64,000 nt of DNA from Candidatus Omnitrophota bacterium (GTDB taxonomy: Bacteria; Omnitrophota; Gorgyraeia; DTHP01), in NCBI GenBank assembly GCA_023819145.1, contig JAMWCW010000001.1, positions 66,400 to 130,399 of the forward strand, given 5' to 3'. Every line of letters starts with the position of its first letter. Within the stretch, counting starts at the first letter, position 1. Shown here one piece after another: positions 3,786-18,471 of this stretch. The notes beneath the pieces are model-generated. The model had not been told where the DNA came from, made no database searches, and saw nothing but the letters and a program-made list of their open reading frames with translations. The translations under genes and the position numbers were made by a program.

Positions 3786-3793
3786 TAATGAGT

Positions 3794-3895
3794 CGTAATC
3801 CGTAAACCGTAATCGGTAATTTGTAATAAAAAATAACGAACTCAACGAAATAACCAACTAAACGAAAATAACGAAATTAACGAACACAACGAACA
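3794..3895. repeat. intergenic stuttered word array: 5 copies of NGTAAT, then about 7 copies of AACGAA
   Basis: The sequence reads cgtaat ccgtaa accgtaat cggtaat ttgtaat, then ataacgaac tcaacgaaa taaacgaaa ataacgaaa ttaacgaac acaacgaac. Confidence 0.6.
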
Positions 3896-3915
3896 AAATA
3901 TCATCAACGCAGCCC

Positions 3916-3944
3916 TTGACGATTTGCAAAAAGCGTGTTATATC
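3916..3944 (+). promoter_or_regulatory. promoter cccTTGACG-N17-TATATC (copy B), probable promoter of the 4188-18471 operon
   Basis: TTGACG at 3916-3921 and TATATC at 3939-3944. It is identical to copy A over 29 nt. Confidence 0.6.
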
Positions 3945-4187
3945 TTAATGTAGAAGAGAGGTACTTTATAAAACTTAAATTTCAATATCATAAATTAACT
4001 TTCTAGAATAAAAAGATGAGAGATTTTAATTATTTCTTTCTATTGGAAAGTGAAAAAATAGTTTCTCATTCTAAAGGGTATCAAGCCCTGATTAAAGCAT
4101 TGGAGCATGGTTTTGAAGGATTAGACAAGGAAATAGCCAAGAGGTTAATAAATTCCTATTTATATTTAAATGAAAGGAGGGAATGTA

Positions 4188-6611
4188 ATGAAAGGTTCTA
4201 AAATAAAATTTTTCTTAGTTTCTTTTTTGGTGCTTTCTTTTAGTTTTGGTTTTTCTTTTTCCGGTGATTCTTCTTTTTTATTGAGAAGACTCAGAAGTGT
4301 TCCTGTAGGTTATTTACCATCTTCAGGGATAGAAGTGGTAGATGCATTAGATGGTATGGTGAAGGTAGAGATGATTTTGCCTCAAACTTTTGAAGAGAAT
4401 CCGGCGTTAGTTCCGACATTATCGGCTTTTTTTCGTGCTTTAAGCTATAACCGCGATATAGAAATCTCAGCGATTGTATCTCCTGTTTCTGCGGAAGAGT
4501 TGGCTAGAGCCATTCAGTCAAATTATGCGTTAGGTCCGTGGAGAGGGGTTAATGTAAGTGCTGAAGGAAACACCTTAATTATAAGAGGAATGGATACAGA
4601 GGTAAGAATACCTGTTTCTACAAGTTCTACAAGATCCACCGGCGGAGCCGATGTTTCTATCTGTCTAGGAGATGTCTCCCGTGCTCCTTCGATTCTTTCC
4701 GGGAAAAGAGCGCTTTATTTTCCTGTAGGAAGCATAACAACGCAAGAAGGAATAACTGCTTTACCTGGTTCTATTGGAGAATGGGATAGTGCGGTGGTTA
4801 ATGTTTCGGAACTTACAGGTTTAGCAATAGCTTTACAAGCTCTGAGAGAAGAATTAGGAGGTTTTGGGATGGTGGGTAGAATAGATGTATTTTGTCCGGA
4901 AGGGGATATGACTATTGTGCCTTCGGCAAAAGAAGCCGATGTTTCTGATTACCTTTCTTCTTTAGGGATAACCTCCCCGGGAATGAGAGTAACTCTTCAT
5001 ACCACAAAAATATCCGGAGATATCAAAGGAGCAAGACTGGTAGGAATAGTAATTACTTTTCCCAGTAAAGTTACCAAAGAAGATTTAATAAAAATATTTG
5101 AAGCGCATCCTTTATTAGGAGTTGCTCCTGAAAAAGATTCTACTTCGGCAATGTTTACCAACCCCTATGAGACAAAACTTTTTTATCTCAATACCGGTAA
5201 GACTGTGGTAGACGAGCTAAAAGATGGTTCTACCATGATAACTCTGCGTGGTTGGGTAGGGGATTATTCTTACGCAGGAATGATGATTTCTGCCATCACT
5301 GAGGTGGGACAGCGTTTGTCGGAGTTAGGTATTCTTTCTACCCAGAAGGCAAGTGTAATCTATCCGGCAGTAGAGCATCCTAAAGTTCAAGTTCTTGCTC
5401 AACCGAAGAGAGTTATGGTCAATGGGGGAGGAGGGAGAATTGGAGTAAATATTTTGAGAAGTCTTATCGGAGATCCTAATTTTGATGTGGTGGCGGTTAA
5501 CGGAGTGCGTAGTGCCGAAGCCTTGCGTCAGGGATTACTTTATGACGAAATACTAGGTCCTACGCGGGCGGTAATAGAAACCGGCAAGCAGAAGTTATTG
5601 GACGGGAGAGAGATAGAGTTTGTGACTATAAATGGCCATAAAATATATGTGTTTAATGCCCGTGAAGATGAAGAAGTGCGTCAACTTCCGTTAGGTGATT
5701 TGGGGATTGAGTATGTTTTAGAAGCAAGTGGCAATTATACTCAAACAAAGGATTTTGAACCTTTCTTTCAAGCAGGAGCTAAATATGGCTTTATCAGCGC
5801 TCCCGCAAAAGATAAAACTACTCCAGAGATTGTTCCCGGTGTAAATCCTGAAACTTTTGTAGCGATGGCAAGAGAAGGACTATCTCAAGTGGTTTCTTTT
5901 GGTTCATGTACTACAAATAATGCTGCTCCTGCCATAAGAGCAGTGCTTGATCTTTTAGAAGCAAGAGGATTGCAAGTAGAAGAGCAATTAGAAAAAGTCA
6001 CTTTAGAGACAGTTCATGCAGTAACCCAGACCCAAGCACATCTTTTACCAATTCAAATCAGAGACCCAAATAAAGAGCCTGAGAGAGCAAGAGCAGGAGC
6101 ACTTAATATTGTAGTTTCTAGTACTGGTGCAGCTAAAGTTATTCCTAAAATCATTGAAGAAATTGACAAAATGGAGGGAATAGCTTTGCGCGTGGGCAAT
6201 CCTAATGGTTCGGAATCGCAGATTTCTTTCTATTTAGATGGTAAATCGCCCGTGACCAAGGAAGAAATAGTTGCTTATTTACAAGAAAGAGCGAGAACTG
6301 ACCTCTTTAATATTTTAAGAGTAAATACTGGAGAAAAATTAGATTCCCTAGCGATAAACGGTTCAGATATTACTTCCATTGTGGAAGCTTCAACGGTGAA
6401 AGTTACTCCTCGTTATAATGATAAAGGAGAATATGTTGGCGATATGATCGTGCTTAATACTTGGTATGATAACGAATGGAGTTATACTCAACAGTACTTA
6501 AGGGGAATTATTATGTTTACCCTATTACTGGAGAACCCTGGTTTAACCCCCGAAGAACTCTTGGTGCGTAGTGACAGATTGGGTGTACATGCCTATGCTC
6601 CTATCCCATAG
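4188..6611 (+). CDS. gap: GAPDH-like protein: leader with RR motif, an N-terminal module of about 400 aa (possibly a degenerate GAPDH catalytic-domain copy), then an intact GAPDH
   Basis: The RBS aggaggg precedes ATG 4188. The C-terminal half has NGGGGRIGVNILR (Rossmann), SCTTNNAAPA (catalytic Cys) and WYDNEWSYTQ. The leader is FFLVSFLVLSFSFGFSFSGDSSFLLRRLRS. Confidence 0.8.
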   Translation: MKGSKIKFFLVSFLVLSFSFGFSFSGDSSFLLRRLRSVPVGYLPSSGIEVVDALDGMVKVEMILPQTFEENPALVPTLSAFFRALSYNRDIEISAIVSPVSAEELARAIQSNYALGPWRGVNVSAEGNTLIIRGMDTEVRIPVSTSSTRSTGGADVSICLGDVSRAPSILSGKRALYFPVGSITTQEGITALPGSIGEWDSAVVNVSELTGLAIALQALREELGGFGMVGRIDVFCPEGDMTIVPSAKEADVSDYLSSLGITSPGMRVTLHTTKISGDIKGARLVGIVITFPSKVTKEDLIKIFEAHPLLGVAPEKDSTSAMFTNPYETKLFYLNTGKTVVDELKDGSTMITLRGWVGDYSYAGMMISAITEVGQRLSELGILSTQKASVIYPAVEHPKVQVLAQPKRVMVNGGGGRIGVNILRSLIGDPNFDVVAVNGVRSAEALRQGLLYDEILGPTRAVIETGKQKLLDGREIEFVTINGHKIYVFNAREDEEVRQLPLGDLGIEYVLEASGNYTQTKDFEPFFQAGAKYGFISAPAKDKTTPEIVPGVNPETFVAMAREGLSQVVSFGSCTTNNAAPAIRAVLDLLEARGLQVEEQLEKVTLETVHAVTQTQAHLLPIQIRDPNKEPERARAGALNIVVSSTGAAKVIPKIIEEIDKMEGIALRVGNPNGSESQISFYLDGKSPVTKEEIVAYLQERARTDLFNILRVNTGEKLDSLAINGSDITSIVEASTVKVTPRYNDKGEYVGDMIVLNTWYDNEWSYTQQYLRGIIMFTLLLENPGLTPEELLVRSDRLGVHAYAPIP

Positions 6612-6644
6612 AAAATAAGATTTATTCTCGCAAAAGGAGGAATT

Positions 6645-8798
6645 ATGCGGATAAGCAATTTAGTAAGAGTTATTTTTATTTTCTTTTCTGTTCAATTTTC
6701 TCTCTTTTCTGGTGAACTCCGGAATGGAGTAATCTTAATTTCTCGTCGGGCTAAGAATCAAGAATTTTTAATAGTGTCTCCCTTTCAAAAATTACTCTCT
6801 CTTTTAGGAAACGGATTACAAACTGGTCTTAACTTTGATGAAGGGATAGAACTTTTTCGCCAGATAGAGAGATTGCGCTTGTCTGTGGAGGAAACAGAAG
6901 ATTTTTATTCTTTTATAGCGAATAATCTTGTTGATTTTTTGGTAGTTTCAGAAAGGTCAGGAATTAGAATTGACCTTCTTGATATTCGCGACCTTTTCTC
7001 GGCAGCACAGAACTATGCTTTGGGGATAAGAAGAGATGAGTTGGGATTAAATAGGGGAGGAAGGGCTCTTTTAAATAAGATGTTAAGTGTTAAAGATATA
7101 AAAATCATTGGTGAACAGCTTTTAGAAGCACTTGACTCCTCTTTTAACAATGGCAGGATTGATAAAGCTAATTACCTGAAATATAGAGAGCGTCTTGAAA
7201 TTATTACTCTGATGGCTGGACTCTGGGCAACTTCACCAGTGAGTTCTAAGAGTATGCTTAGAGCTTTAGAAGGAGGAAATACCGCCATTATGGCCGCAAA
7301 TACCCAGATGTCGGTAAGTATTCCCGGACTTATGCTTGCTTCTTTAGAATTTGGAGCTCCCCTTATGTTTGAATCGGCAATGAGTGAAGTCAACCTGCAA
7401 GACCCAAATGACCCTGCGAAAATAGCTATTGGTTATATCGGTAGAAATCCCCAGGAATTTGCGGAAGTAGTAAGATACTATGCCTTTCTTTTAGGTTACG
7501 ACCTGCCTTATGCCATTCATGCTGACCACACCACAGTAAGTAAAGATACAGCGGAGGCAATTGACTATGCTAAAAGACTTAATCAAGCACAATTATCTGC
7601 AGGATATACCTCTTTTGCTATTGATCCTTCATCTCTTCCCGCAGTGAGAGAAGATACCCAGTTAAAAACGCTCAATGCCATGGAGGTGGAAGAGTTCTTG
7701 AGGCTTGGTTTTGATGAAAGTTTAGCAAAAACTTTAGCCGCGCGAGAATTTAAAAAATTAAAAGAACTCTCTTCTATTGAAGGAATAGACGAGAGAAAGA
7801 TCAATATTCTGATGGACTATATTGAGTCACAGATTCTAGTTGCAGTTTTGAATAAAATGGGGTATGAAGATTTGATGAGCATTCCACGTATGCCTGGAAC
7901 TATTGCCCGTGCCATTGTAGAGAACGGTCCGTTTACTTCCTTGGAAGAGCTAAAAGAAATTGATGGGCTGGGTGATGATGATATTTTCTATATTGAGGGA
8001 ATAGACAATGCGGTTCTTTTGTTTGATTATTTAAAGGCTTACTTAGATTTAAAGCGGATTATTGAGATAAATATAGAATTAGCAAAATTTATTCCTGAAG
8101 AGTTTGGTTTAGAGGTGGAAGTTGGTCATATTGGAAGAGTTGATCCACTGACGGGAGAGGCGGTGATGACTACTCCTTTAGAAGCGGTAGTTTTGATTGA
8201 AGCATTACAAAGATTTGGGATAAAACCACAGCTTTTGGCGGTAAATAATGGAACAAAACACGGAATTGTCTTCATTGGGGGTAAAGAGGTTCCTACGACT
8301 GTAGATGTAAAAAGAACCGATGAAATAGCGAGCGCTATAAGACCTTTAGGAGTTTCCCTTGCTCAGCACGGAACTACTGGTACGCCTTTTGAGGTTATAA
8401 AAGATCAACTTGCGGGAAATATCCTTAAAGCCAATGTAGGAACCGAGTGGCGGAGAACTGTTTTAAGAAGCATGCCTTTGGATTTATTCTATAGAATGGT
8501 AGAGTGGACAGTGGAAGAAGAAAAAAGGAAAGCTCCAGAGAAATTTTCTGGACTTCTTCCGGTAAGAAGTTATACACGTGAACAACTGCTAAGTTCAGAG
8601 TGTCCTTACTATGCTTTAATTATTGATCCTATAAAACGGGCAATAGGAGTTTTTAGAGCTGAAATTGATAATATTTCTGGTGAGGATTTGGATTTAATTG
8701 TAGAAACAACCCGCGAAGTAGCAAGAGAGTATTTTACTGCTTTTAATGCTCTAGAGAAAGTTTGGAAGATTGTAAAGTATTTGGGTTGGGGATGGTGA
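6645..8798 (+). CDS. fba: class II fructose/ketose-bisphosphate aldolase-like protein with the leader, the RR motif and an inserted helix-hairpin-helix module
   Basis: The RBS is aggagg. Aldolase motifs are IHADHTT, GYTSFAIDPSSLP, VEVGHIG, NNGTKHG and QHGTTGTP. The insert near aa 345-455 has LKELSSIEGIDERK and LEELKEIDGLGDDD. The leader ends ILISRRAKN. Confidence 0.7.
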   Translation: MRISNLVRVIFIFFSVQFSLFSGELRNGVILISRRAKNQEFLIVSPFQKLLSLLGNGLQTGLNFDEGIELFRQIERLRLSVEETEDFYSFIANNLVDFLVVSERSGIRIDLLDIRDLFSAAQNYALGIRRDELGLNRGGRALLNKMLSVKDIKIIGEQLLEALDSSFNNGRIDKANYLKYRERLEIITLMAGLWATSPVSSKSMLRALEGGNTAIMAANTQMSVSIPGLMLASLEFGAPLMFESAMSEVNLQDPNDPAKIAIGYIGRNPQEFAEVVRYYAFLLGYDLPYAIHADHTTVSKDTAEAIDYAKRLNQAQLSAGYTSFAIDPSSLPAVREDTQLKTLNAMEVEEFLRLGFDESLAKTLAAREFKKLKELSSIEGIDERKINILMDYIESQILVAVLNKMGYEDLMSIPRMPGTIARAIVENGPFTSLEELKEIDGLGDDDIFYIEGIDNAVLLFDYLKAYLDLKRIIEINIELAKFIPEEFGLEVEVGHIGRVDPLTGEAVMTTPLEAVVLIEALQRFGIKPQLLAVNNGTKHGIVFIGGKEVPTTVDVKRTDEIASAIRPLGVSLAQHGTTGTPFEVIKDQLAGNILKANVGTEWRRTVLRSMPLDLFYRMVEWTVEEEKRKAPEKFSGLLPVRSYTREQLLSSECPYYALIIDPIKRAIGVFRAEIDNISGEDLDLIVETTREVAREYFTAFNALEKVWKIVKYLGWGW

Positions 8799-8868
8799 GA
8801 TCTTATAATTCTTCTTAGTAATTGAAGTTGTCTAAAAATTATTTGCTACTAAAGGAGGGATTGTAGAG

Positions 8869-10407
8869 ATGAGAAAAATATTTTTAGTTCTTTCTTTTTG
8901 TTTATTGTTTTTTCTATTTTGTCCTTTAAATTATAATTCTCAAGAATATTTTTCTTTCCGTAGAATTCATCGTAATCTTTTAATCACTGACCCACAACTT
9001 TTAGATGAGGCATATTTGTTGAATATCCTCCATATTGGGGGTGGATTGGGTTCCATTGTAGTCGATGCTCGTAGCGGAGAGCATATTGCGAGATTGAGTA
9101 TCTCTGGGAAAAGAATTATTAGTCGTGATGGTTTTAGCGTGCAGGATATTTTAAAAGGGATAGAAGAAGGGCGATTCGTTACTGTTACTCATCAAGAATT
9201 AGTTCAGAGGGCTCTTGAACATAGAGAGAATTGTGTGCTTGTCTTTACAGGTGGTGGAGATTCTGCGGGTATAAATGCAGTAATCAGTTCTGCAGTCCAA
9301 GGATTAAAGAAATTGAAACCAGAAATGACTGTTTTGGGTTTAAGAAACGCAGGAGCCAGTCTGGTGGTTTCTCCGGAAGAATTTCCCGAACATCTTGTTC
9401 TGATAGATGAATTATACGCTGAAGATGTTGCGGAACAGGGCAGTACTTTTTTGGGCTCTTCAAGGTATAATCCTTTTAAGAAAGCAGAAGATATGGCAAA
9501 GACTCTGGAAAACATAAAGGGTTTTGGAGCGTGGATTTCTACAGGAGGAGATGATAATCTTAAGGTTGCCCAGAGATTATCCCAGGAAAATCCGGAAATG
9601 GTGGTTTTGGCTACTGCCAAAACCATCGATGGTGATGTGATGGTTAATGGAAGAGGAGTGCAATGTTTGGGATTTGATTCAGCAGCGAAGATGTATCGGG
9701 ACGAAATTTATTCTATTGCCCAGAGTGCCAAAGCTCATGGAGAGAAAGAACAACCGCTGGTAATTGTGGTTGAGGTGTTTGGAAGGGATTCCGGAAGGTT
9801 GGCTTTTGAATCGGCGCGCCCCGATGACTTTTCCGGATTGAATGCGGAGGAAATTCGGAGACAAGTTGACCTTGCAGGAACGATAATGATCGTTGTTCCT
9901 GAGGAGAAACATGCTGACGGGACTCAAGCGACCATTGATGAATTAGTAAAAAGGGCAGAGGAAATTATTGCCCGCGAAAATGCAGTGGTAATAGTTGTTG
10001 CTGAAGGTTATCGGCCAGGAGATATGCCGGATATTGTAAAAACTTCTTCTAAAACAGATGCCTACGGACACGTTCAACTTGCCGGCATTGGTTCCGCGCT
10101 TGTTCCGGTTTTAGAAAAAAGAATTCCTAAAGCAAAAGTAAGAACCTCTCTTCTTAACTATGAAGGAAGGGGAACGCTTCCCAGCGAATACGATGTTACA
10201 TTGGGTTATAAGATTGGTTGGGAAATGGCTGAACTAATAGCCCAAGGAGTGACGGGTGGAAGGTTTGTAGGATATTTCAATGAAATGGATGCCCGTTTTG
10301 AACTGCCGGTGGTGCTGGAATTGGTGAATATCTCTAACCAGAATACCTTAGAGCTTTATCCCCGTCAAATATTAGAGAGGAATAGGGTTTTGGTGCTTGA
10401 TAGGTAA
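8869..10407 (+). CDS. pfk: phosphofructokinase, PPi-type by sequence determinants, with the leader and RR motif
   Basis: The RBS is aggaggg. Motifs are FTGGGDSAGINAVI, TGGDDN (Asp at the position equivalent to E. coli 104) and AKTIDGD (Lys at the position equivalent to 124). The leader is IFLVLSFCLLFFLFCPL...FSFRRIHR. Confidence 0.8.
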   Translation: MRKIFLVLSFCLLFFLFCPLNYNSQEYFSFRRIHRNLLITDPQLLDEAYLLNILHIGGGLGSIVVDARSGEHIARLSISGKRIISRDGFSVQDILKGIEEGRFVTVTHQELVQRALEHRENCVLVFTGGGDSAGINAVISSAVQGLKKLKPEMTVLGLRNAGASLVVSPEEFPEHLVLIDELYAEDVAEQGSTFLGSSRYNPFKKAEDMAKTLENIKGFGAWISTGGDDNLKVAQRLSQENPEMVVLATAKTIDGDVMVNGRGVQCLGFDSAAKMYRDEIYSIAQSAKAHGEKEQPLVIVVEVFGRDSGRLAFESARPDDFSGLNAEEIRRQVDLAGTIMIVVPEEKHADGTQATIDELVKRAEEIIARENAVVIVVAEGYRPGDMPDIVKTSSKTDAYGHVQLAGIGSALVPVLEKRIPKAKVRTSLLNYEGRGTLPSEYDVTLGYKIGWEMAELIAQGVTGGRFVGYFNEMDARFELPVVLELVNISNQNTLELYPRQILERNRVLVLDR

Positions 10408-10461
10408 AGAGATAACTTATTTTATTTGGCATTTTTAAAACAAATAGGTTTCTGAGTATTT

Positions 10462-11253
10462 GTGCGATATTTAATAATAAGAAAAATAGTAATTATTTTA
10501 TTTTTTTTGGCTCTTTCTCAGACAATAGTATTTTCTCCGGTGTATGCTCGCAGAGTGAAGTGGTTTGGGGGTGAGTTATCACTTCTTCAAGAAAATAATT
10601 TTTTTGTAGGGCTGGAAGATAGTTTGAAAGAGTTTGTTATTAAATTCGAGGATGCCAGAGTAATAAAATCTATCTCTCAGCCAGAGCCATTAGAAGGGGA
10701 TGCCCCTTTTGATTCCGGAGAAAAGATAGTTACCTATAAAATTGAGGTTTTGACAGATAAAGGGGTTAGCAGTTTAGTAGTGAAATTGGTAAGTAGCAGA
10801 GAAGCAAAAAATTTCTTAACTGCTTCTTTAAGGGGTGTTTCTCCAGGTCCAGCGATTTTTGTAGAACAGGGGTGGGAGAACAGAAATGGCGTTAGCGAAG
10901 GTTATTTAATCTATCGGTTCTTTGAAGGAGTGAAGTTAAGCGAAATTTGTAATCAGGAACAGGCAATTGATATCCTAAAGAATAATCTTTGGATTATTGA
11001 AGAATTAGGTATTAAACTTGCGAATTTAAAGAAAGCAGGGGTAAAATATAGAGATTTTTTATATTATAATACGCTTATTGATTTAGAAAAGAGAGCTCTT
11101 GTGATTGTTGATTACGGTGATAGGCATTGCGCTGATCCCTTTATTCAGGTAAGAGATTGGTGGTTGCCTTTGATGTTCAATACTGAACCCGAGATATTAG
11201 AGAAAGTTATTAGTTTATTTGTAGAAGTTTATCAGAGAGAATTAAATAATTAA
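10462..11253 (+). CDS. protein-kinase-like fold protein (RIO/Kdo/APH-like) with the leader and RR motif
   Basis: YRDFLYYNTLI resembles the HRD..N catalytic loop and IVDYGD resembles DFG. The start is GTG with a weak RBS. The leader is IVIILFFLALSQTIVFSPVYARRVKW. Confidence 0.45.
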   Translation: MRYLIIRKIVIILFFLALSQTIVFSPVYARRVKWFGGELSLLQENNFFVGLEDSLKEFVIKFEDARVIKSISQPEPLEGDAPFDSGEKIVTYKIEVLTDKGVSSLVVKLVSSREAKNFLTASLRGVSPGPAIFVEQGWENRNGVSEGYLIYRFFEGVKLSEICNQEQAIDILKNNLWIIEELGIKLANLKKAGVKYRDFLYYNTLIDLEKRALVIVDYGDRHCADPFIQVRDWWLPLMFNTEPEILEKVISLFVEVYQRELNN

Positions 11254-11325
11254 TGAGATTTGCTACTCTTAAAGAAATTATCTTGCGGCGAGAAATGATC
11301 ACAATTTTAAGGGGGAGGAAGTGAT

Positions 11326-13551
11326 ATGGGTATGAGGAAAATATTCATATTTTGTTTTATTCTCATAAAATTTGCCATCTTTTCATTTTCTTTTAATTTT
11401 TCCTCTTTAGAAATTATTGCGCATCGCAGAACTAAAATTTCTCCTTTAGTAGCAAATCATGAGTCTGTAAGGAAAGTTTTAGTAGATATTTTCTACAGAG
11501 CAGCAGGATTTCAAGGGGCTTTGCGCAGCGGAACAGCACAAGAACGGCGAGATATTTTAAACCAACCTGAGGTAAAGCGCGCTGTTTCTTTGCTCCAATA
11601 TGGTTTGAGTTTAGGAAGTACAACTTTAAGAAATCAAGTGGCTTATCTTGCTGAACGTTTAGGGATAAGCGCGAATCCCGCAGTAAATATTGGAATCTAT
11701 CAGGGAGAAGCCGAAATTTTTGATATTCTGGGAAATATCTTTATGCCTGAGGGAGATGGTTTAGTCTTTTATCAAAAAGGAACTGATAATCCCGAAACTC
11801 TTTTTAAGCCTTTTTTGGCTCGCTATGGAGCCAAAATATTTGAATTTGACCCTTACTTCGTAGAGCGCAATTCTACTCCCTCCTATTCTACAGAATTAAG
11901 CGGTTTTGAAGCGCTGATTTCTTTAGCTATTCAAGAGGGACAAAATCCGCGTTTTATCTATCTTAGCGGAAAAGGTTTAACCGAAGCGCAAGCAAGAAGA
12001 ATTTATGCTTTGGCAGAAACTTACAATCTTATAATTATTGAGGATATTACCAACGCAAACCCTACAGATTATCTACTTTCTGCAAACGATTCTCAAGGGA
12101 GAGTAATTTCCATCGGAAATTTTGACAAGTATTTAGGGGCTGCAAATCCTTTAAGTTATGCCATTGCGGGAGAAGAGATTATGCGTCTTATGGAAATTGC
12201 TATTGGCGGGATAAGTCTTCATCCCAATGCTTTTATTCAGCCGATAGTCTCGGAAATTTTAGCCCAAAACGGTATACCTTTCTCGGTAAATGTTTCCTAT
12301 AAACCCATCACTCTTTCTGAGAGTGTAAAAGCAATTCTTGCTTCAACAGGTGCAGACCAGCGCTTAAAACCCTCCATCATTAGAGAAATTCTTAAAGGGG
12401 CAGTTTCGGATATGGTGCGTATGGGAGGAGGGGTTCCTGCCGAGGAGTTCTTCCCTTATGTGGAAATTGCCCAGATTATAGAAAATATGAGCCCTGAGGA
12501 ATGGGAAAAGGTAATGGCTGGGGACCCGGCGATTAATTTAGAGTTGCGCAGTGTTTTTTGCCGGTGGCTTGAAGAAAGAGGAATAAAAGCTGACCCCCGT
12601 CAGGTTTTGGTAACCAATGGGAGCCAGCAGGGTTTGGATTTATTGGGAAGATGGGTGGGAAAAGAAGGAGTTGTTTTTGCCGAATCTCCTACCTATGTAG
12701 GAATGATTACGGGAGTTGCTCCTTACGGAGGCCTTCCTTATGGTAGAAATATTCGGCATTGGGATTTACGCACACTCACTGGATTAGAGAATTTAGAGAA
12801 AGAAATTGAAGAGAACTATCGAGGTAAAAAAATTGTTTTATATGTTACACCAAACTTTGGTAATCCTCCTTCAGGGAATATGTGGACGATTAGCGAAAGA
12901 AGGAATCTTCTGGCTTTTGCCCAGAGGATGCGCTTAAAGGGATACGATTTGCATATTGTAGAAGATGATCCTTATGGAGAACTAAATTATACTGGTCAAA
13001 GAATTGTAGATATCAAAGAGTTGGATACAAACGGAACAGTAATTTATTTCAACTCCAATTCCAAAGTCTTTTCTCCGGGAATGCGTGTGGGGTACATTGT
13101 GGCTGATGAGAAAATAATTCATGAATTTGCTTCTCTTATGGATGAAGTAGGTTCTTTTGTTCCTACACTCCCCCAACTTATTATTACTAAGTTTATCGAG
13201 ACAGGAGCGATGGATAGACATATTGAATTTTTGATTGGTGAATATTCAAAACGTGCACGGGCAATGGAAGAAGCTTTAGAGGAATTTATGCCTGAAGGTG
13301 TAACCTGGACAAAACCTGAGGGAGGGTTATTTATTACTTTAACTGTTCCCTGGGATATAGATTTTATGGCCATGCTTGAGGAGGCCAAAAATTACGCGAT
13401 TCCCTTTAACTTTGTTCCGGGTATCGCCTTTAGTGTGGATGGCTCAAGTGCTCATAAAATTCGTCTTTGCTTTTCCACAGAGTCTGAAGAAAGAATAACC
13501 TTAGGTATTAAGGCTTTTGCGGAGTTGATAAAAAAACACCTTGGCCAATAG
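11326..13551 (+). CDS. tandem class I/II PLP-dependent aminotransferase-fold protein with the leader and RR motif
   Basis: The second half has LVTNGSQQGLDLL, YVTPNFGNPPSG, IVEDDPYGEL and NSNSKVFSPGMRVGY (PLP Lys). The first half parallels it (IYQGEAEIFDIL, IIIEDIT, GNFDKYLGAANPLSY). The leader ends SSLEIIAHRRTKI. Confidence 0.75.
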   Translation: MGMRKIFIFCFILIKFAIFSFSFNFSSLEIIAHRRTKISPLVANHESVRKVLVDIFYRAAGFQGALRSGTAQERRDILNQPEVKRAVSLLQYGLSLGSTTLRNQVAYLAERLGISANPAVNIGIYQGEAEIFDILGNIFMPEGDGLVFYQKGTDNPETLFKPFLARYGAKIFEFDPYFVERNSTPSYSTELSGFEALISLAIQEGQNPRFIYLSGKGLTEAQARRIYALAETYNLIIIEDITNANPTDYLLSANDSQGRVISIGNFDKYLGAANPLSYAIAGEEIMRLMEIAIGGISLHPNAFIQPIVSEILAQNGIPFSVNVSYKPITLSESVKAILASTGADQRLKPSIIREILKGAVSDMVRMGGGVPAEEFFPYVEIAQIIENMSPEEWEKVMAGDPAINLELRSVFCRWLEERGIKADPRQVLVTNGSQQGLDLLGRWVGKEGVVFAESPTYVGMITGVAPYGGLPYGRNIRHWDLRTLTGLENLEKEIEENYRGKKIVLYVTPNFGNPPSGNMWTISERRNLLAFAQRMRLKGYDLHIVEDDPYGELNYTGQRIVDIKELDTNGTVIYFNSNSKVFSPGMRVGYIVADEKIIHEFASLMDEVGSFVPTLPQLIITKFIETGAMDRHIEFLIGEYSKRARAMEEALEEFMPEGVTWTKPEGGLFITLTVPWDIDFMAMLEEAKNYAIPFNFVPGIAFSVDGSSAHKIRLCFSTESEERITLGIKAFAELIKKHLGQ

Positions 13552-13608
13552 ATTTTTTTGTAATATTTATATCTCCCTTTGGTTATAGATAATAGGGGGG
13601 CGAGAAAG

Positions 13609-14769
13609 ATGAAGAAATACTTAAGAATTAGAGGGATATTTATTTTAGTAGTATTTGTAGTATTTTTATTTACGCTTTTGATTCCTGTAAAACATTCCTT
13701 GGCTTATCCCAGGAGTTATCCTTATTTAGTTTCTAATTCATTACCAGCTTTTTCCGCGCGAGGGTTTAATGAAGCGCTCTTAGCGCGAGTTTTGCGCGAG
13801 ATTATCATTATCTATAAATTCTTGGCTCAAATCGAAAGGGTTCTTAATGAAAGAGGAGAAAATGATTTTCCATCTTTAGGTAGGGTCATCGGAGACAGAC
13901 CTCAGGAGAGAGAAAATTCCCAAAATACTCCCCCCAAAAGAAGTAATTTAAGGGAAGAACCTGCGGGTAACCGTCATCTAGACCCAGAAAATCCTTCGGC
14001 AAAACTACCAGAAGGGTCATCTTCGTCACCTGCTGGTTCTCTAGGAAAGATAAAGATTGCGATTATTGATATTGACTCTAAGCACGCCGCAGAAGTAAAG
14101 GCGGTAATGGAAGAGACAATTCGGCGTAAGAATCCCGGGGCAAAAGTAGAAATTCGTACCATTATTCTTCCTGGCAAATGGCAAAGGGATGGTTCTAAAG
14201 CGGTGGCTACCAGTGATATTTTAGACGCTTTTGCAGAAGCCAAAGCTTGGGGCGCAAAGGTAATCAATATGAGTATTGGTGCACAAGGAGGTGTAGACGG
14301 TATAGTGCTTAGTGCCTTACGCGACCTTTCTGAAAGTGGCATTCTGGTAGTAGCGGCATCAGGTAATGAAGGTAGTTATGATGCTTGGGGGCAAGCTGGC
14401 CGATATGTCTTATCAGTGGGGGTAAGAGGTGCACCTTATTCCAATACCGCTGATTTATATGTCGATTGGGGAGAGCTTCCACCTGGATTAGAAGGCACAT
14501 CTTTTGCTGCTCCGATTATTGCTGCGGAAGCGGCTTTAGCCTGGTTAGAAAACCCTTCCCTTAACTTGGCAAGTTTGCCTTCTCAATTAGGTTCACGGGA
14601 CACAGTTTATGCCCGGAGTAATCCTCCGCAAAGAAGTTCGCAGGGGTTTCACACTTCGGCAATAGAGTTTGTAAGGCCACCTGTTGTTTTTTATACGCCG
14701 GTGGAAGAAATGCCTTTTTACGAACAGAGTTTTTATTCGCCTGTTGGCTGTTTTCCGTCTTTTTGGTAA
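13609..14769 (+). CDS. membrane-anchored S8 subtilisin-like serine peptidase
   Basis: Motifs are IAIIDID (Asp), SKHAAEV (putative His), VINMSIG, VVAASGNEGS (oxyanion Asn) and GTSFAAPIIAAE (Ser). The N-terminal helix is IFILVVFVVFLFTLLI. AYPRSY occupies the position where neighbouring genes have RR. Confidence 0.7.
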   Translation: MKKYLRIRGIFILVVFVVFLFTLLIPVKHSLAYPRSYPYLVSNSLPAFSARGFNEALLARVLREIIIIYKFLAQIERVLNERGENDFPSLGRVIGDRPQERENSQNTPPKRSNLREEPAGNRHLDPENPSAKLPEGSSSSPAGSLGKIKIAIIDIDSKHAAEVKAVMEETIRRKNPGAKVEIRTIILPGKWQRDGSKAVATSDILDAFAEAKAWGAKVINMSIGAQGGVDGIVLSALRDLSESGILVVAASGNEGSYDAWGQAGRYVLSVGVRGAPYSNTADLYVDWGELPPGLEGTSFAAPIIAAEAALAWLENPSLNLASLPSQLGSRDTVYARSNPPQRSSQGFHTSAIEFVRPPVVFYTPVEEMPFYEQSFYSPVGCFPSFW

Positions 14770-14876
14770 TTTTTGTTTGTTTTCTTCTAAATAAAGGGGA
14801 CACTTACTACCGACTCTTCATTGGTTGTAAGAAAGTAAAAGATATTAAACTTGAATTCCGAGGAGGTATTATATAA

Positions 14877-16064
14877 ATGAAAAATAGTAGAGGAAAGATT
14901 TATGTTATGTTTTTGGGTTTGTTATTTTTCTTTCTTAACTCATTATTATATTTAGACTTATCTGCGGGATGCTCTTTCCGGCGAATCAAAACTCAACCTG
15001 CCAAAGAATCTGCGCTGGTGCTTTTTTTCCACGAATTAGGTAGAGAAGATATTTTTTTAGTGGGAGGAAAAGGGGCAAATTTGGGAGAACTTTCGCATAT
15101 TGCCGGGATAAGCGTTCCCGAGGGGTTTGTAGTTACCACCACCGCTTTTCAAAAATTTTTAGATGCCAACCCTGGATTACAAGATAAAATTATCAGGATT
15201 ATAAATAGTATAGATTGGGATACCCCTTCCAGTATAAACTCTGCTGCGGAAAAGATAAAAGAAGCGGTTTTGCGTGCGAACATGCCGCGAGAGATTATTG
15301 AGATGATTAAAGCAGGTTATGGCCATTTAGAAGAGATCTCCGGAATAAAGGATGTGCCCTGTGCTGTAAGAAGTTCGGGAGTTGCTGAGGATTCTCCTAA
15401 CTTTTCTTGGGCAGGTCAATTCCGCACTGAATTAAATCAGAGGGGAATATATCAGGTTTTAGAGGCGGTTAAATTAATCTGGGCAGAGTTGTATAATCCT
15501 GATGCCCTTACCTATGGACATCAGAATGGTATCGACCCGCGCAAATTTTCTATGGGAGTGGTAATTCAGCGGATGATAAATTCAGAGAAATCAGGAGTGG
15601 CTTTTGGACTGGAGTCCGATACAGGTTTTCGTGCCAATCCCGGAGGAATGGAAGGAGTTTTTTATATTGAAGGGGTTTATGGTTTAGGTGAAGGGATGGT
15701 GCAAAATATTCAAGAACCTGATGGATTTTTGGTAGTAAAGATGCCTAATGGTGAATTTAAAATTATTGAACGCATTTTCGGTTCCAAAAGAGAACAGATA
15801 GTTTATCGGTCTGGAATGAGTGGGACAGAGAAAACTTCGGTTCCCGAAGAATGGCGTCAGAGATGGGTTTTTTCAGAAGCAGAGGTGTTAGAGATTGCTC
15901 GTGCAGTTTTTGCCTTAAATAGCCACTATAATCATCCCCAGGATGTAGAATTTGCCTGGGAAGGAGGAAAACTATACATATTACAATCACGCAATGAGAC
16001 AGTTCATGCAGATAAACCAGTAGATTTAATTGAATGGAGAAAGTTTAGAATTAACCTTAAATGA
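14877..16064 (+). CDS. PEP synthase (pyruvate, water dikinase) N-terminal ATP-grasp module as a separate polypeptide, with the leader and RR motif
   Basis: VGGKGANLGELS is the PPDK_N signature. The protein ends after the nucleotide-binding domain. The leader is VMFLGLLFFFLNSLLYLDLSAGCSFRRIKTQP. Confidence 0.75.
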   Translation: MKNSRGKIYVMFLGLLFFFLNSLLYLDLSAGCSFRRIKTQPAKESALVLFFHELGREDIFLVGGKGANLGELSHIAGISVPEGFVVTTTAFQKFLDANPGLQDKIIRIINSIDWDTPSSINSAAEKIKEAVLRANMPREIIEMIKAGYGHLEEISGIKDVPCAVRSSGVAEDSPNFSWAGQFRTELNQRGIYQVLEAVKLIWAELYNPDALTYGHQNGIDPRKFSMGVVIQRMINSEKSGVAFGLESDTGFRANPGGMEGVFYIEGVYGLGEGMVQNIQEPDGFLVVKMPNGEFKIIERIFGSKREQIVYRSGMSGTEKTSVPEEWRQRWVFSEAEVLEIARAVFALNSHYNHPQDVEFAWEGGKLYILQSRNETVHADKPVDLIEWRKFRINLK

Positions 16065-16083
16065 AAAAAGGGGGAGATAAATA

Positions 16084-18471
16084 ATGAAGTGGTTACATGT
16101 TAAAATTTTTTGGAGTATTGCCTTTTTAATTATTGCCAGCCTACTTTATGTTGATAATCTTTTTATGTTTTCTTCTTTAGATTTTATTACAAGAAGAGTA
16201 TTAACTCCTTCTTATACAGATTCTCCTTCGGTTGAGGTTCCCTCCGGTTCTCCTAAAATAATTGCCCGTGGAGAAGGGGTAGGTGCTAAAGGAGCGGGGG
16301 TAGGACGAGTGGTTATCATTGATGAAAATAGTTCCATCCCTATTCGTGAGCAGGCAATGCGTGTGCGCGAAGGAGATGTACTTGTTGCTTATCGCACCGA
16401 TCCTTCTTTGGTGGATGCCATGCGCCGAGCAGGTTTGGTGATTACTGAAATTGGAGGGAAAAATTCTCATGCTGCGATTGTCGCTAGAGAATTTAATTTA
16501 AATGCGGTTATTGGTGTGCCCAATGCTACGCGTATTTTTGCTCAAGGGCAGGTAGTTACTGTTGATGCTGAGCATGGAGTCATTTATGCTGGAGCTTTGC
16601 CGCTTGAAGAAGATAGTGTTTCCTATCGCGTGAGTGAACTTCCGTCTACGAGCCCTGTAAAGATAGGGATACTTTCCTTTGATACTGCTCGGGTGAGAGC
16701 GATGTTTCCTTTGGGTTTGTATTCTGATTTTTACGGTATAGGGCTGATGCGTGCAGAGTTTGCTTTACAAAATATTGGCATCCATCCGTTAGCAATATTG
16801 GATTTTGATAGAGGTACGCTTAGAGATGCAAGGCTACAAACAGAAATTACGCAAAAAATCAAAGGCTATGCGAGTGCGCGAGACTATTACATCTCAAAAC
16901 TTTCTTCTGCAATATTTTCCAATTCGCTTATTCTACATGAGGGGCAAAAGGTTATTTACCGCACCACTGATTTTAAAACCAACGAATATGAAGATATGTT
17001 AGGAGGGGATGTTTACGAGCATAAAGAGCCCAACCCCATGATGGGCAATCGCGGTTTACAGCGAATGATTAGTCCTGAATACCGGGAAGCATTTGATATG
17101 GAACTCGAAGCATTTTTACTTGCCTGGAAAGATAATCCGGGAAAGATTTCTATCATGGTTCCTATGGTACGCACTCCCCAAGACCTTCTGACTTTTCGTC
17201 AAATTCTTGAGGGAAAAATAAGGAGTATGGGGCTCTCGGGTATGCCTGAGGTAGTAATGATGTATGAATTGCCCGCGAATGTTTTTCAGATAGAGGAATT
17301 TATTCACGCCGGTATAAATGGTATTTCCATTGGTTCAAATGACCTGACACAATTTATTCTGGCAGTAGACAGGGACAGTGGTTTATTTAGAGAAGGAGGT
17401 AGAGAAGAATATGATGCCGTAAATAGAGCAGTATTGCGTGCTATCGGCATCGGTATAACTTCTTCTAAAGCCCGCGGTGTAAAAACAGGTATTTGTGGGC
17501 AAGCGCCATCAGACCATCCAGATGTTTATCCTGCAATTCTTACTGCTTTAGGAATAGATTCTATAAGTGTTACTCCCGATGTGTTTCATAAAGTGGTAGA
17601 AGCAGTAGCCCAAGCACAACAAAATCCTTCTTTTGGGATGAGATACCTTTCGGGTTTAGATTTATTTTTAGGCTACGATACCCAGACTAATCCCAAACGA
17701 GAATTAAAGAAGATAATTAGTTCTGATGATATACTTCGGAGTATTGGCATTCATCCTTTAGCCTTACTTGCCTTTGACCGGGGAAGTAGTTTATTGAGTG
17801 ATACGGCGATAAGTAGGCAGATTGTTTCTTTTGCCGGAGAAGAAACTGCAGAACGGGCTTACTTTGACCGTGTATATAGGGCGGTAAAGAATGCTTTACT
17901 TATGGATGGAGAGGTAGTTTATAGAACAGGAAGTTTGCTCAGTACCGATTATAAAACGCTTGTGGGAGGAGATATTTTTGAAAAAGAAGAAGCAAATCCC
18001 TTATTGGGTGCGTTTGGAATGTACCGCCTGCTCAGATATGGTTCAGAAGATGGCGCTTTGAGTATGCGTGATATTTTTAACATAGAGATGGATGCAGTTT
18101 TAAAAGCTGTGCGGGATACCGGTAAAGTTATTCATTTAGAGTTAGATATGGTGCGCACTTTTGGAGAATTACAGGAGGCAGTTTCTGTGATTAATGAGGC
18201 AATACGCCGTACAGGGATTTCTCCAGATAAGGTGAAAATTGGTCTAAATGTTTCTACTCCGGCAAATGTTCTGCTTATTTCTGATTTTATTAACCAAGGG
18301 AGATTAAGTTTTGTGAGTATCGACGAAAAAAGGTTAGCCTGTTATCTTTTGGGGGTGGATTCCTTGAGTATGGTTAGCCCCGAGGCTATTGAACGAGCCC
18401 TATATATACCTCGTCAACTGGTTTATACAGCATTAGCTCAAAAGGGAATCCCTTTAGTTAACTCCCCCTAA
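16084..18471 (+). CDS. PEP synthase phospho-His swivel domain, an intact PEP/pyruvate TIM barrel and a degenerate second barrel, with the leader and RR motif
   Basis: Motifs are GGKNSHAAIVAREFNLNAVIGV, GLMRAEF, NPMMGNRG, GSNDLTQ and CGQAPSD. Residues 545-795 repeat the barrel with lost motifs (NPLLGAFG, SIDEKRLAC). The leader ends LDFITRRVLTP. Confidence 0.8.
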   Translation: MKWLHVKIFWSIAFLIIASLLYVDNLFMFSSLDFITRRVLTPSYTDSPSVEVPSGSPKIIARGEGVGAKGAGVGRVVIIDENSSIPIREQAMRVREGDVLVAYRTDPSLVDAMRRAGLVITEIGGKNSHAAIVAREFNLNAVIGVPNATRIFAQGQVVTVDAEHGVIYAGALPLEEDSVSYRVSELPSTSPVKIGILSFDTARVRAMFPLGLYSDFYGIGLMRAEFALQNIGIHPLAILDFDRGTLRDARLQTEITQKIKGYASARDYYISKLSSAIFSNSLILHEGQKVIYRTTDFKTNEYEDMLGGDVYEHKEPNPMMGNRGLQRMISPEYREAFDMELEAFLLAWKDNPGKISIMVPMVRTPQDLLTFRQILEGKIRSMGLSGMPEVVMMYELPANVFQIEEFIHAGINGISIGSNDLTQFILAVDRDSGLFREGGREEYDAVNRAVLRAIGIGITSSKARGVKTGICGQAPSDHPDVYPAILTALGIDSISVTPDVFHKVVEAVAQAQQNPSFGMRYLSGLDLFLGYDTQTNPKRELKKIISSDDILRSIGIHPLALLAFDRGSSLLSDTAISRQIVSFAGEETAERAYFDRVYRAVKNALLMDGEVVYRTGSLLSTDYKTLVGGDIFEKEEANPLLGAFGMYRLLRYGSEDGALSMRDIFNIEMDAVLKAVRDTGKVIHLELDMVRTFGELQEAVSVINEAIRRTGISPDKVKIGLNVSTPANVLLISDFINQGRLSFVSIDEKRLACYLLGVDSLSMVSPEAIERALYIPRQLVYTALAQKGIPLVNSP

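What the first reader, a model, noticed from the sequence alone, without database searches (positions are those of the whole stretch)
4188..18471. A recurrent architecture: an intact catalytic copy fused to a degenerate copy of the same fold (single-chain pseudo-dimers)
There are three clear cases and one weaker one. (1) In PpsA-C, residues 215-505 form a TIM barrel with an intact NPMMGNRG, GSNDLTQ and CGQ. Residues 545-795 (nt 17716-18468) repeat it (IGIHPLALLAFDRG, VVYRTGSLLSTDYKTLVGGD), but the motifs have decayed to NPLLGAFG and SIDEKRLAC. (2) The aminotransferase has an N-terminal half (about nt 11443-12316) parallel to the canonical C-terminal half. (3) The GAPDH-like protein has an N-terminal module of about 400 aa whose end (ITLRGWVGDYSYAGMMISAI) mimics the GAPDH C-terminal WYDNEWGYS helix. 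A DVSICLGDVSRAP segment mimics SCTTNCLAP. This case is the less certain of the three. (4) The asparaginase-like protein has two asparaginase-C-like modules. All of these folds normally work as homodimers or oligomers. Fusing an active and an inactive protomer would guarantee assembly where partner concentration is low, for example after export. That is inference.
Basis: partly seen in the sequence, partly recalled or inferred. Interest (0 to 1): 0.55.

Follow-up and report, generated by a model that had tools for sequence, protein, structure and literature searches.

The report
Enzymes fused to dead copies of themselves
In one gene cluster of an uncultivated Omnitrophota bacterium, three central-metabolism enzymes (a GAPDH, an aminotransferase and PEP synthase) each carry a conserved, catalytically dead copy of their own fold, most likely a built-in partner subunit.

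Summary
The core observation holds for three of the four cases.

- **PEP synthase.** The C-terminal ORF has a second PEP-binding barrel. Self-alignment gives z=41, and the barrel matches solved PEP synthase 2OLS at E=8e-15. All catalytic residues are lost.
- **Aminotransferase.** The N-half is a degenerate aminotransferase large domain. hhalign of N against C gives E=3e-7, and the N-half profile against PDB gives 1e-16.
- **GAPDH-like protein.** The ~350-aa N-module shows no significant pairwise similarity to GAPDH. Its AlphaFold model matches only GAPDH structures (E~1e-18, TM 0.64-0.70).
- **Asparaginase-like protein.** It lies outside the stated interval, at 60162-61886. Its second C-like module is not significant.

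The dead copies are conserved in 5-8 orthologs each, all from Omnitrophota apart from some distant two-barrel PEP synthases.

The best support for a single-chain pseudo-dimer is a reciprocal pattern in the aminotransferase. The C-half keeps every residue that acts within its own subunit but has lost Tyr74 and Leu293, which the partner subunit supplies in human KAT II. The N-half shows the opposite pattern.

The "after export" rationale is not supported. A leaderless Desulforudis PEP synthase has the same two barrels. PFK and aldolase carry the same leader without a dead copy.

This is a new variant of a known kind.

The parts
4170..6611 (+). GAPDH-like ORF (813 aa; the likely true start is 4188, as in orthologs). 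Order: leader, degenerate GAPDH module, 18-aa linker, intact GAPDH module.
   Evidence: There are 6 orthologs with the same architecture (L004, L005, P0157-P0160).
4317..5354 (+). Degenerate GAPDH module (aa 50-395). The glycine loop is replaced by VVDALDG. Cys149 position is E214. His176 position is Asp/Asn.
   Evidence: Pfam Gp_dh_N E=0.0027. Profile against PDB has GAPDH on top. AF2 pLDDT 77.7. Foldseek top 50 are all GAPDH, E 1e-17 to 1e-18, TM 0.64-0.70. Identity to orthologs is 39-68%.
5409..6539 (+). Intact GAPDH module (aa 414-790): NGGGGRIG loop, Cys580, His616, WYDNEW.
   Evidence: Pfam Gp_dh_N and Gp_dh_C. TIGR01534 gives 194 bits, below its 367-bit cut-off.
11326..13551 (+). Aminotransferase ORF (741 aa). 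Order: leader, degenerate large domain, intact KAT II/MocR-like aminotransferase.
   Evidence: Orthologs are P0122-P0125 and L008:7758-9896. P0121 is 100% identical to the window protein (the source MAG's own record), not an independent ortholog.
11461..12315 (+). Degenerate aminotransferase module (aa 46-330). It keeps Tyr92 (LQYG, = hKAT II Tyr74*) and Leu298 (SLHPN, = Leu293*). The PLP-Lys position is not conserved (K/R/S/H/K/Q).
   Evidence: hhalign against the C-half E=3.4e-7. Profile against PDB 1e-16. Foldseek on a low-confidence model has aminotransferases on top. Residue table.
12361..13548 (+). Intact aminotransferase module (aa 346-741). All cis residues are present (Lys580, Asp547, Arg713 and others). 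The Tyr74 position is Gly399 and the Leu293 position is Ser.
   Evidence: Pfam Aminotran_1_2. Alignment to canonical homologs. Residue table.
14877..16064 (+). PEP synthase N-terminal ORF (PPDK_N nucleotide-binding domain) with its own leader.
   Evidence: Pfam 2.4e-91. It is fused to the next ORF in orthologs P0001-P0004.
16084..18471 (+). PEP synthase C-terminal ORF (795 aa). Order: new 52-aa leader, mobile His domain (His129), intact barrel, degenerate barrel.
16696..17628 (+). Intact PEP-binding TIM barrel (aa 205-515): GLMRAEF, YRTTD, NPMMGNR323G, MYELP, GSN419DLTQ, C471GQ.
   Evidence: Pfam PEP-utilizers_C 1.4e-57. Alignment.
17716..18468 (+). Degenerate, C-terminally truncated PEP-binding barrel (aa 545-795). 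Arg is replaced by Phe644, Asn-Asp by Lys-Arg, and Glu by Ser. The CGQ segment is missing. The NPxLG motif is kept.
   Evidence: z=41 against barrel 1. Pfam 40.4 bits. PDB 2OLS 8e-15. The same losses occur in all 8 homologs. Identity to orthologs is 31-65%.

Best explanation
The window comes from a Candidatus Omnitrophota genome. In a co-directional cluster of leader-bearing central-carbon enzymes, three proteins are tandem fusions of a catalytically intact module and a diverged, catalytically dead copy of the same fold. They are a GAPDH-like protein, a KAT II/MocR-type aminotransferase, and the C-terminal part of a split PEP synthase.

The dead copies are under purifying selection. They most likely sit where the second subunit of the ancestral homo-oligomer sat. 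Each chain would then be a self-contained pseudo-heterodimer with one active site.

Shown: same-fold duplication, loss of catalytic residues in one copy, and conservation across orthologs. In the aminotransferase the functional residues are also divided reciprocally. The C-half keeps every residue that acts within its own subunit. The N-half keeps the two residues that a partner subunit donates to the active site in human KAT II.

Inferred: the two copies actually pack through the canonical dimer interface. The inference is strongest for the aminotransferase and weaker for GAPDH and PpsA.
For: - Duplication is shown (PpsA; aminotransferase; GAPDH).
- Catalytic decay of one copy only is shown.
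- The dead modules are conserved across orthologs: 39-68% (GAPDH N), 52-73% (aminotransferase N) and 31-65% (barrel 2). The live modules show 51-81%, 53-83% and 43-80%. The orthologs come from independent JGI, ENA, Logan and NCBI assemblies.
- Reciprocal complementation in the aminotransferase. All six C-halves keep S117, Q118, Y142, N202, D230, Y233, S260, S262, K263, R270 and R399. They have lost Y74 in 5 of 6 by the automatic alignment (4 clear; P0125 is ambiguous) and L293 in 6 of 6. All six N-halves keep Y74 and L293 and have lost the cis set.
- In hKAT II, Tyr74 and Leu293 come from the subunit opposite to the one supplying Tyr142, Asn202 and Arg399 (PMC6629613; PMC6313367). A C:C homodimer in the window's clade would therefore lack both trans residues.
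- Barrel 2 keeps the NPx(L/M)G motif in all 8 homologs while losing the Arg two residues later. EI Gly356 is described as lying in the EIC dimer interface (PMC13598208). That Gly356 is the Gly of this motif is my recollection of the EI sequence, so this is a lead and not a test.
- The S-loop position of the GAPDH N-module (PxGDxxIxP) is invariant yet has low confidence in the isolated model (pLDDT<50 at model residues 195-200). This would fit an interface loop, but it is weak evidence.
- A relative's FBPase_3 (1039 aa) also contains two FBPase_3-like modules.
Against: - No geometric test of the interface was possible.
- The aminotransferase N-half model is poor (pLDDT 56).
- The two deepest aminotransferase orthologs keep, or may keep, Tyr in the C-half as well: L008 clearly and P0125 ambiguously. 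Loss of the trans residue is therefore clade-specific.
- In hKAT II the N-terminal arm residues I19, R20, G39 and L40 are also donated in trans. Here they are best conserved in the C-half, not the N-half. This does not fit a strictly KAT II-like swapped arrangement.
- GAPDH is a tetramer, so a pseudo-dimer alone does not define the assembly.
- The alignments are shallow (5-8 sequences).
Confidence: 0.6

Rival explanations
1. The dead copies are regulatory, ligand-sensing or scaffold modules that do not replace the partner subunit. This would resemble the regulatory half of hexokinase I or of eukaryotic PFK. The live modules would still homo-oligomerise (C:C and N:N), giving larger head-to-head assemblies or a multi-enzyme metabolon.
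For: - The dead modules are conserved, which any function would explain.
- GAPDH is normally a tetramer, so higher-order assembly is expected anyway.
- The deepest aminotransferase orthologs still keep the trans Tyr in the C-half.
- The cluster enzymes are co-encoded and share one leader type, which is compatible with a membrane-associated complex.
Against: In the window's clade a C:C aminotransferase dimer would lack both Tyr74* and Leu293*, while every cis residue is kept. The ligand-binding residues of all three dead modules are gone, which argues against a sensor for the same ligands.
Confidence: 0.25
2. The fusions would have evolved because the enzymes are exported or diluted, so that a fused partner guarantees assembly.
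For: All three fusion proteins and their Omnitrophota orthologs carry an N-terminal hydrophobic leader followed by an RR[IV]K-like motif.
Against: - The two-barrel PpsA of Ca. Desulforudis audaxviator (P0007, 1115 aa) has no leader.
- PFK and class II aldolase are oligomeric and carry the same leader, but have no dead copy.
- Undoubted exported proteins in the window (TolC-like protein, lipoproteins) lack the RR motif.
- Charge is balanced on both flanks, so topology is ambiguous.
- The enzymes need ATP or NAD (established biochemistry).
Confidence: 0.12
3. The extra modules are decaying remnants, assembly artefacts or chance resemblances with no function.
For: Pairwise similarity is nil for GAPDH (z=1.0) and marginal for the aminotransferase (z=4.3).
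Against: The same architectures appear in independent assemblies from four sources, with open frames and 31-73% identity in the dead modules. Profile and fold evidence is strong.
Confidence: 0.03

Closest known systems
Mammalian PRMT7 (two PRMT core folds in one chain forming an intramolecular pseudo-dimer)
   Same: It is a tandem copy of an obligate-dimer fold within one polypeptide, and the copies interact as the homodimer would (PMC8226133).
   Different: The fold is different and the protein is eukaryotic. Here three unrelated enzyme folds in one bacterial gene cluster show the pattern, and packing is not demonstrated.
Plant DJ-1 homologs (tandem DJ-1 domains, proposed single-chain pseudo-dimers)
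   Same: Domain duplication occurs in homologs of homodimeric proteins. Some carry organelle-targeting N-terminal extensions (PMC3160306).
   Different: The fold is different, and both DJ-1 domains may remain functional. Here one copy is clearly dead.
Trypanosomatid 'prozymes' (e.g. PRMT1 ENZ/PRO)
   Same: A catalytically dead paralog is required as the partner of the live enzyme (PMC8226133).
   Different: Those are separate polypeptides. Here the dead paralog is fused in cis.
Hexokinase I and eukaryotic PFK (tandem duplicated halves, one turned regulatory). Cited from general knowledge, not tested here.
   Same: An ancestral enzyme was duplicated and fused, and the two halves then diverged in function.
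   Different: In those enzymes the extra half binds effectors. The window's own PFK (8869-10407) shows no internal duplication.
Human KAT II / Pyrococcus PH0207 / LysN-type class I aminotransferases (PDB 2R2N, 1X0M, 3AOV)
   Same: Both halves of the window protein match this subfamily. The active-site residue set is the same.
   Different: These are homodimers with two composite sites. The window protein divides the cis and trans residues between two fused, non-identical copies.
Canonical PEP synthase (PDB 2OLS; TIGR01418) and type I GAPDH (TIGR01534)
   Same: The live modules carry all family motifs.
   Different: They score below the NCBIfam equivalog cut-offs. There is an extra dead barrel or dead GAPDH module and an N-terminal leader. 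ppsA is split into two ORFs in this genome.

Membership tests
Type I GAPDH (live C-module, aa 414-790) | Rossmann GxGxxG loop, catalytic Cys149 and His176, and Pfam Gp_dh_N + Gp_dh_C above the gathering score | tested here: met
   NGGGGRIG, Cys580 and His616 are present. Pfam scores are 65.9 and 64.6 bits against cut-offs of 31.7 and 24.4.
Type I GAPDH (live C-module) | NCBIfam equivalog score (TIGR01534 cut-off 367 bits) | tested here: not met
   194.3 bits. It is a divergent member, and its substrate specificity is not established.
GAPDH fold (dead N-module, aa 50-395) | Full two-domain GAPDH fold | tested here: met
   Foldseek top 50 are all GAPDH, E down to 2e-18, TM 0.64-0.70, about 360 aligned columns. 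The model has pLDDT 77.7.
GAPDH fold (dead N-module) | NAD-binding glycine loop and the Cys/His catalytic pair | tested here: not met
   VVDALDG replaces the loop. The Cys position is E214 and the His position is D/N.
Class I/II aminotransferase, KAT II/MocR-like (live C-half) | PLP Lys plus the cis set (S117, Q118, Y142, N202, D230, Y233, S260, S262, R270, R399 in hKAT II numbering) | tested here: met
   All are present in 6 of 6 orthologs. Pfam gives 69.3 bits against a cut-off of 19.7.
Class I/II aminotransferase (live C-half) | Trans-acting Tyr74 and Leu293 contributed to the partner's site | tested here: not met
   The window has Gly399 and Ser at these positions. Tyr is lost in 4-5 of 6 orthologs and Leu in 6 of 6.
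Fold-type I aminotransferase large domain (dead N-half) | Profile-level homology to solved aminotransferases | tested here: met
   1x0m and 3aov at 1e-16 over 229 positions. hhalign against the C-half gives E=3.4e-7.
Fold-type I aminotransferase (dead N-half) | Conserved PLP-binding Lys and Arg | tested here: not met
   The Lys position is K/R/S/H/K/Q. The R270 position is Pro in five orthologs and Lys in one.
PEP-utilizers_C barrel (copy 2, aa 545-795) | Pfam score above the gathering threshold | tested here: met
   40.4 bits against 22.8. PDB 2OLS at 8e-15.
PEP-utilizers_C barrel (copy 2) | Catalytic Arg/Arg/Arg, Glu, Asn-Asp and Cys | tested here: not met
   The Arg of the NPxxGxRG motif, Glu, Asn-Asp and the Cys segment are lost in all 8 two-barrel homologs. 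The Arg of the YRT motif is kept in the window and some orthologs.
Intramolecular pseudo-dimer (PRMT7-like architecture) | Two copies of one oligomer-forming fold in a single chain, one of them inactive | tested here: met
Intramolecular pseudo-dimer | The two copies pack through the canonical subunit interface | not testable with these tools
The only indirect support is the cis/trans complementation in the aminotransferase.
   Pfam finds one N domain and one C domain and nothing in aa 301-470. Self-alignment gives z about 2 and hhalign P=0.022. No orthologs were found.

The most novel reading that the evidence does not exclude
A clade of Omnitrophota has rebuilt part of glycolysis/gluconeogenesis as a membrane-tethered or extracytoplasmic set of enzymes.

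- Each enzyme is targeted by a lineage-specific leader, a hydrophobic segment followed by RR[IV]K at residues ~27-43.
- The leader is possibly matured by the co-encoded S8 protease.
- Enzymes whose active sites need a partner subunit have been re-engineered as single-chain pseudo-oligomers, so that one tether corresponds to one functional unit.
- PEP synthase has even been split into two separately targeted chains.
Probability: 0.12. Interest if true: 0.85.

Novelty: new variant of a known kind. Interest (0 to 1): 0.55.

Why it matters
Active/dead tandem fusions are a known route of enzyme evolution. Finding them in three unrelated folds within a single bacterial gene cluster is unusual, and a relative's FBPase_3 would make four.

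- **Rarity.** The GAPDH case has only 4 cluster representatives among 1.84 billion proteins. One homolog is annotated only as 'hypothetical protein'.
- **A clean natural example.** The aminotransferase shows how a homodimer with two composite sites can turn into a single-site pseudo-heterodimer. This is useful for understanding pseudoenzymes and for designing single-chain PLP enzymes.
- **Open question on location.** All these enzymes share an undescribed leader type. This bears on where central metabolism takes place in these ultra-small, possibly host-dependent bacteria.

Tried and rejected
- **Self-BLAST.** blastp of each protein against itself returned nothing, even for PpsA-C. I replaced it with Smith-Waterman plus shuffles.
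- **Word-indexed homolog search.** A search with the GAPDH N-module found nothing. The exhaustive HMMER search then found 4 representatives.
- **Exact look-up.** The GAPDH-like protein is not on record.
- **Genome and metagenome scans.** Scans with PpsA-C and with the asparaginase-like protein found no relatives.
- **GAPDH N against C.** hhalign was not convincing (P=0.024). The case rests on the fold search.
- **PFK.** No internal duplication was found.
- **Class II aldolase.** It has a ~170-aa N-extension plus a helix-hairpin-helix insert, not a second barrel.
- **PGK and the S8 peptidase.** Neither has a self-similarity signal. PGK is a monomeric enzyme.
- **GlpX (538 aa, L004).** The extra N-terminal 217 aa have no family match.
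- **Structure limits.** The afdb50 library was unavailable.
- **NCBIfam.** It has no model matching the leader.
- **Literature.** Searches found no description of these architectures in Omnitrophota. The searches were limited, so this is not proof of absence.
Full report
**Context**

The interval 2271-18471 holds a run of co-directional genes:

| Gene | Length |
|---|---|
| PGK | 504 aa |
| GAPDH-like protein | 813 aa |
| Class II FBP aldolase | 717 aa |
| PFK | 512 aa |
| Unknown protein | 263 aa |
| Class I aminotransferase | 741 aa |
| S8 peptidase | 396 aa |
| PPDK_N (PEP synthase N-part) | 395 aa |
| Rest of PEP synthase | 795 aa |

The aminotransferase is 100% identical to an NCBI protein from a 221-kb contig of a Candidatus Omnitrophota MAG. 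Orthologous clusters occur on contigs from JGI, ENA, Logan and NCBI. One GAPDH homolog comes from Ca. Kaelpia aquatica, phylum Omnitrophota, and is annotated as a hypothetical protein. All the enzymes score well below NCBIfam equivalog cut-offs, so this is a very divergent set.

**Case 1: PEP synthase**

- Residues 196-520 and 521-795 of the 795-aa ORF align with a Smith-Waterman score of 261, against 34+/-5.5 for shuffles (z=41).
- Copy 2 alone passes the Pfam PEP-utilizers_C threshold.
- Copy 2 hits ordinary PpsA barrels at 1e-14 to 1e-18 and the solved Neisseria PpsA 2OLS at 8e-15.
- Barrel 1 keeps every family motif: GLMRAEF, YRTTD, NPMMGNRG, MYELP, GSNDLTQ and CGQ.
- Barrel 2 has lost the first Arg, the Arg of NPxxGxRG (Phe644), the Glu and the Asn-Asp pair (Lys-Arg). 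It ends before the Cys-bearing segment.

The same losses occur in all eight two-barrel homologs. Four of these are Omnitrophota-type proteins of 1057-1157 aa. Three are more distant, including the 1115-aa 'phosphoenolpyruvate synthase' of Ca. Desulforudis audaxviator. Barrel 2 is 31-65% identical across them, against 43-80% for barrel 1.

In this genome the gene is split exactly at the linker between PPDK_N and the mobile His domain. The second ORF begins with 52 inserted residues that form a new leader.

**Case 2: aminotransferase**

- Pairwise N against C similarity is marginal (z=4.3) but colinear.
- With five orthologs, hhalign of the N-half against the C-half gives 93% probability and E=3.4e-7 over 197 columns.
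- The N-half profile hits solved KAT II-type aminotransferases 1x0m and 3aov at 1e-16.
- The AF2 model of the isolated N-half is poor (pLDDT 56), but still retrieves aminotransferases first.

The N-half covers the region from the LQYG motif through the PLP-lysine strand and the following helix. It lacks the small domain.

I aligned N-halves, C-halves, canonical homologs and human KAT II. I recalled the KAT II sequence from memory and validated it at 23 published residue identities. The result is reciprocal:

| Module | Cis residues (S117, Q118, Y142, N202, D230, Y233, S260, S262, K263, R270, R399) | Trans residues (Tyr74*, Leu293*) |
|---|---|---|
| C-halves (6 orthologs) | All kept in 6 of 6 | Tyr74 position is Gly/Gly/Gly/Gly/Pro, kept only in the most distant ortholog. 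Leu293 position is Ser x5 and Val |
| N-halves (6 orthologs) | Lost. The Lys263 position is K/R/S/H/K/Q, R270 is Pro in five and Lys in one, and N202 and Y233 are deleted | Tyr74 kept (LQYG, 6 of 6). Leu293 kept ([ST]L[HC][PT]N, 6 of 6) |

In hKAT II crystal structures Tyr74 and Leu293 belong to the subunit opposite the one providing Tyr142, Asn202 and Arg399 (PMC6629613; PMC6313367). One complete active site can therefore be assembled only from the C-half plus the N-half. This is the pattern expected of an intramolecular pseudo-heterodimer, and it argues against C:C pairing in this clade.

There are two caveats:
- The N-terminal arm residues I19, R20, G39 and L40 are also trans in hKAT II. 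Here they are best conserved in the C-half.
- The deepest orthologs still have, or may have, Tyr in the C-half.

**Case 3: GAPDH-like protein**

The ~350-aa N-module shows no significant pairwise similarity to the C-module (z=1.0; hhalign P=0.024). A word-indexed search found no homologs. The exhaustive HMMER search of 1.84 billion representatives found four. With two neighbours from fetched contigs, that gives seven sequences.

- Pfam gives a weak Gp_dh_N hit (E=0.0027).
- In the profile search against PDB, 11 of the top 20 hits are GAPDH, including the top six (best E=0.0019). The alignment is colinear over GAPDH residues 20-180.
- An AF2 model built from five sequences has pLDDT 77.7 and pTM 0.83.
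- Its 50 best Foldseek hits in the PDB are all GAPDH, at E 1e-17 to 2e-18, TM 0.64-0.70, 12-17% identity, over the full length.

The module lacks the glycine loop (VVDALDG), the catalytic Cys (Glu214) and the catalytic His (Asp/Asn). The C-module has NGGGGRIG, Cys580, His616 and WYDNEW.

The equivalence of DVSICLGD with SCTTNCLAP does not hold. That segment aligns with the 'vDvVvEaTG' strand, and the Cys helix is VSELTGLAIAL.

**Case 4: asparaginase-like protein**

No asparaginase lies in the stated interval. I first suspected PFK, which shows no internal duplication. The asparaginase-like ORF is at 60162-61886 and also carries the leader.

It has one N domain (aa 125-298) and one C domain (aa ~470-574), separated by ~200 extra residues. 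Those residues show motif parallels to the C domain (FYSNA, LVIEG, GIPVFV). The statistics are weak: z about 2, hhalign P=0.022 and no Pfam hit. No orthologs could be retrieved. This case is inconclusive.

**How general the pattern is**

- A relative's FBPase_3 (1039 aa, L001) matches overlapping parts of the Pfam profile twice, so it also has two modules.
- PFK and class II aldolase are oligomeric enzymes in the same cluster with the same leader. Neither has a dead copy.
- The pattern is therefore recurrent but not universal.

**Mechanism**

Three things are shown: duplication, one-sided catalytic decay, and purifying selection on the dead copies. What I infer is that the dead copy occupies the partner-subunit position.

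- For the aminotransferase, the cis/trans split makes this likely.
- For PpsA, barrel 2 keeps the NPx(L/M)G turn in all homologs while losing the adjacent catalytic Arg. EI Gly356 is reported to lie in the EIC dimer interface (PMC13598208). My mapping of Gly356 onto this motif is from memory.
- For GAPDH, the invariant PxGDxxIxP at the S-loop position has low confidence in the isolated model. That would fit an interface loop, but it is weak evidence.

This is not supported.

- The Desulforudis two-barrel PpsA has no leader.
- Leader-bearing PFK and aldolase lack dead copies.
- Proteins that are certainly exported in this window lack the RR motif.
- Charges on the two flanks of the hydrophobic segment are balanced, so topology is unresolved.

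**Comparison with known systems, and novelty**

Intramolecular pseudo-dimers are known in PRMT7 (PMC8226133) and proposed for plant DJ-1 (PMC3160306). Dead-paralog partners are known as trypanosome prozymes.

I found no description of a double GAPDH, a double class I aminotransferase or a two-barrel PEP synthase, though my literature searches were limited. Public annotations call these proteins simply 'aminotransferase', 'phosphoenolpyruvate synthase' or 'hypothetical protein'.

I rate this a new variant of a known kind, of moderate interest. The associated leader class and the split ppsA are the more open-ended leads.

Noticed in passing
window 287-18471 and 60162-61886; also L001, L003, L004, L005, L006, L008: Eleven of 36 ORFs start with a hydrophobic segment followed by RR[IVLATS][KRHLP] at residue 27-43 (e.g. 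FRRIK, ARRVK). They include every gene of the block 287-18471 except the S8 peptidase, and orthologs keep the motif. The TolC-like protein and the lipoproteins in the window lack it. The proteins that carry it are normally cytoplasmic enzymes. Net charge is similar on both flanks, so it could be an export signal or a membrane anchor.
   Followed up: partly
window 14877-16064 and 16084-18471: ppsA is split at the linker between PPDK_N and the mobile domain. The second ORF has gained a 52-aa leader of the same type. Orthologs P0001-P0004 are single fused proteins of about 1150 aa.
   Followed up: yes
window 13579-14769; L001:10272-11495; L006:13269-14393: A membrane-anchored S8 subtilase without the RR motif recurs inside or next to the enzyme cluster. 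It could be the protease that processes the dibasic leader motif. This is speculation and was not tested.
   Followed up: no
window 60162-61886: An asparaginase-like protein (574 aa) carries the RR leader, a ~100-aa N-extension and a ~200-aa insert between the N and C domains. The insert faintly resembles the C domain. Asparaginase active sites are built between the N domain of one subunit and the C domain of the neighbour (general knowledge), so an extra C-like module would fit the same logic.
   Followed up: partly
window 6645-8798: The class II FBP aldolase has a ComEA-like helix-hairpin-helix module (aa ~400-445) inserted inside the barrel and a ~170-aa helical N-extension of unknown origin. 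Both are conserved in orthologs.
   Followed up: partly
L001:1019-4138: A relative encodes a 1039-aa FBPase_3 (FBP aldolase/phosphatase family, normally about 360-400 aa). Two regions match overlapping parts of the Pfam profile, so it has two modules. It also carries the leader (AEARRVKG). L004 has a 538-aa GlpX with an unexplained 217-aa N-terminal part.
   Followed up: partly
window 10462-11253: A 263-aa leader-bearing protein in the middle of the cluster has only a weak Bud32/RIO-type kinase match (E=5e-4).
   Followed up: no
window 2271-18471: All cluster enzymes score far below NCBIfam equivalog cut-offs (e.g. GAPDH 194 against 367 bits, PFK 157 against 431). They may be a second, specialised set rather than the housekeeping pathway. 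The rest of the genome was not available to check.
   Followed up: no
window 19002-23138 and 23396-29443: Two very large ORFs (1378 and 2015 aa) have signal-like N-termini and no significant Pfam domain. The first has repeated 'VRTQVI(R/K)' near its N-terminus. Downstream are an IS200-like transposase (29623-30276) and a TolC-like/HlyD/2xAcrB efflux set (31839-42295).
   Followed up: no
window 44883-49025: A trehalose gene set: OtsA-like GT20, trehalose phosphatase, DUF5752 and TreT-like synthase.
   Followed up: no
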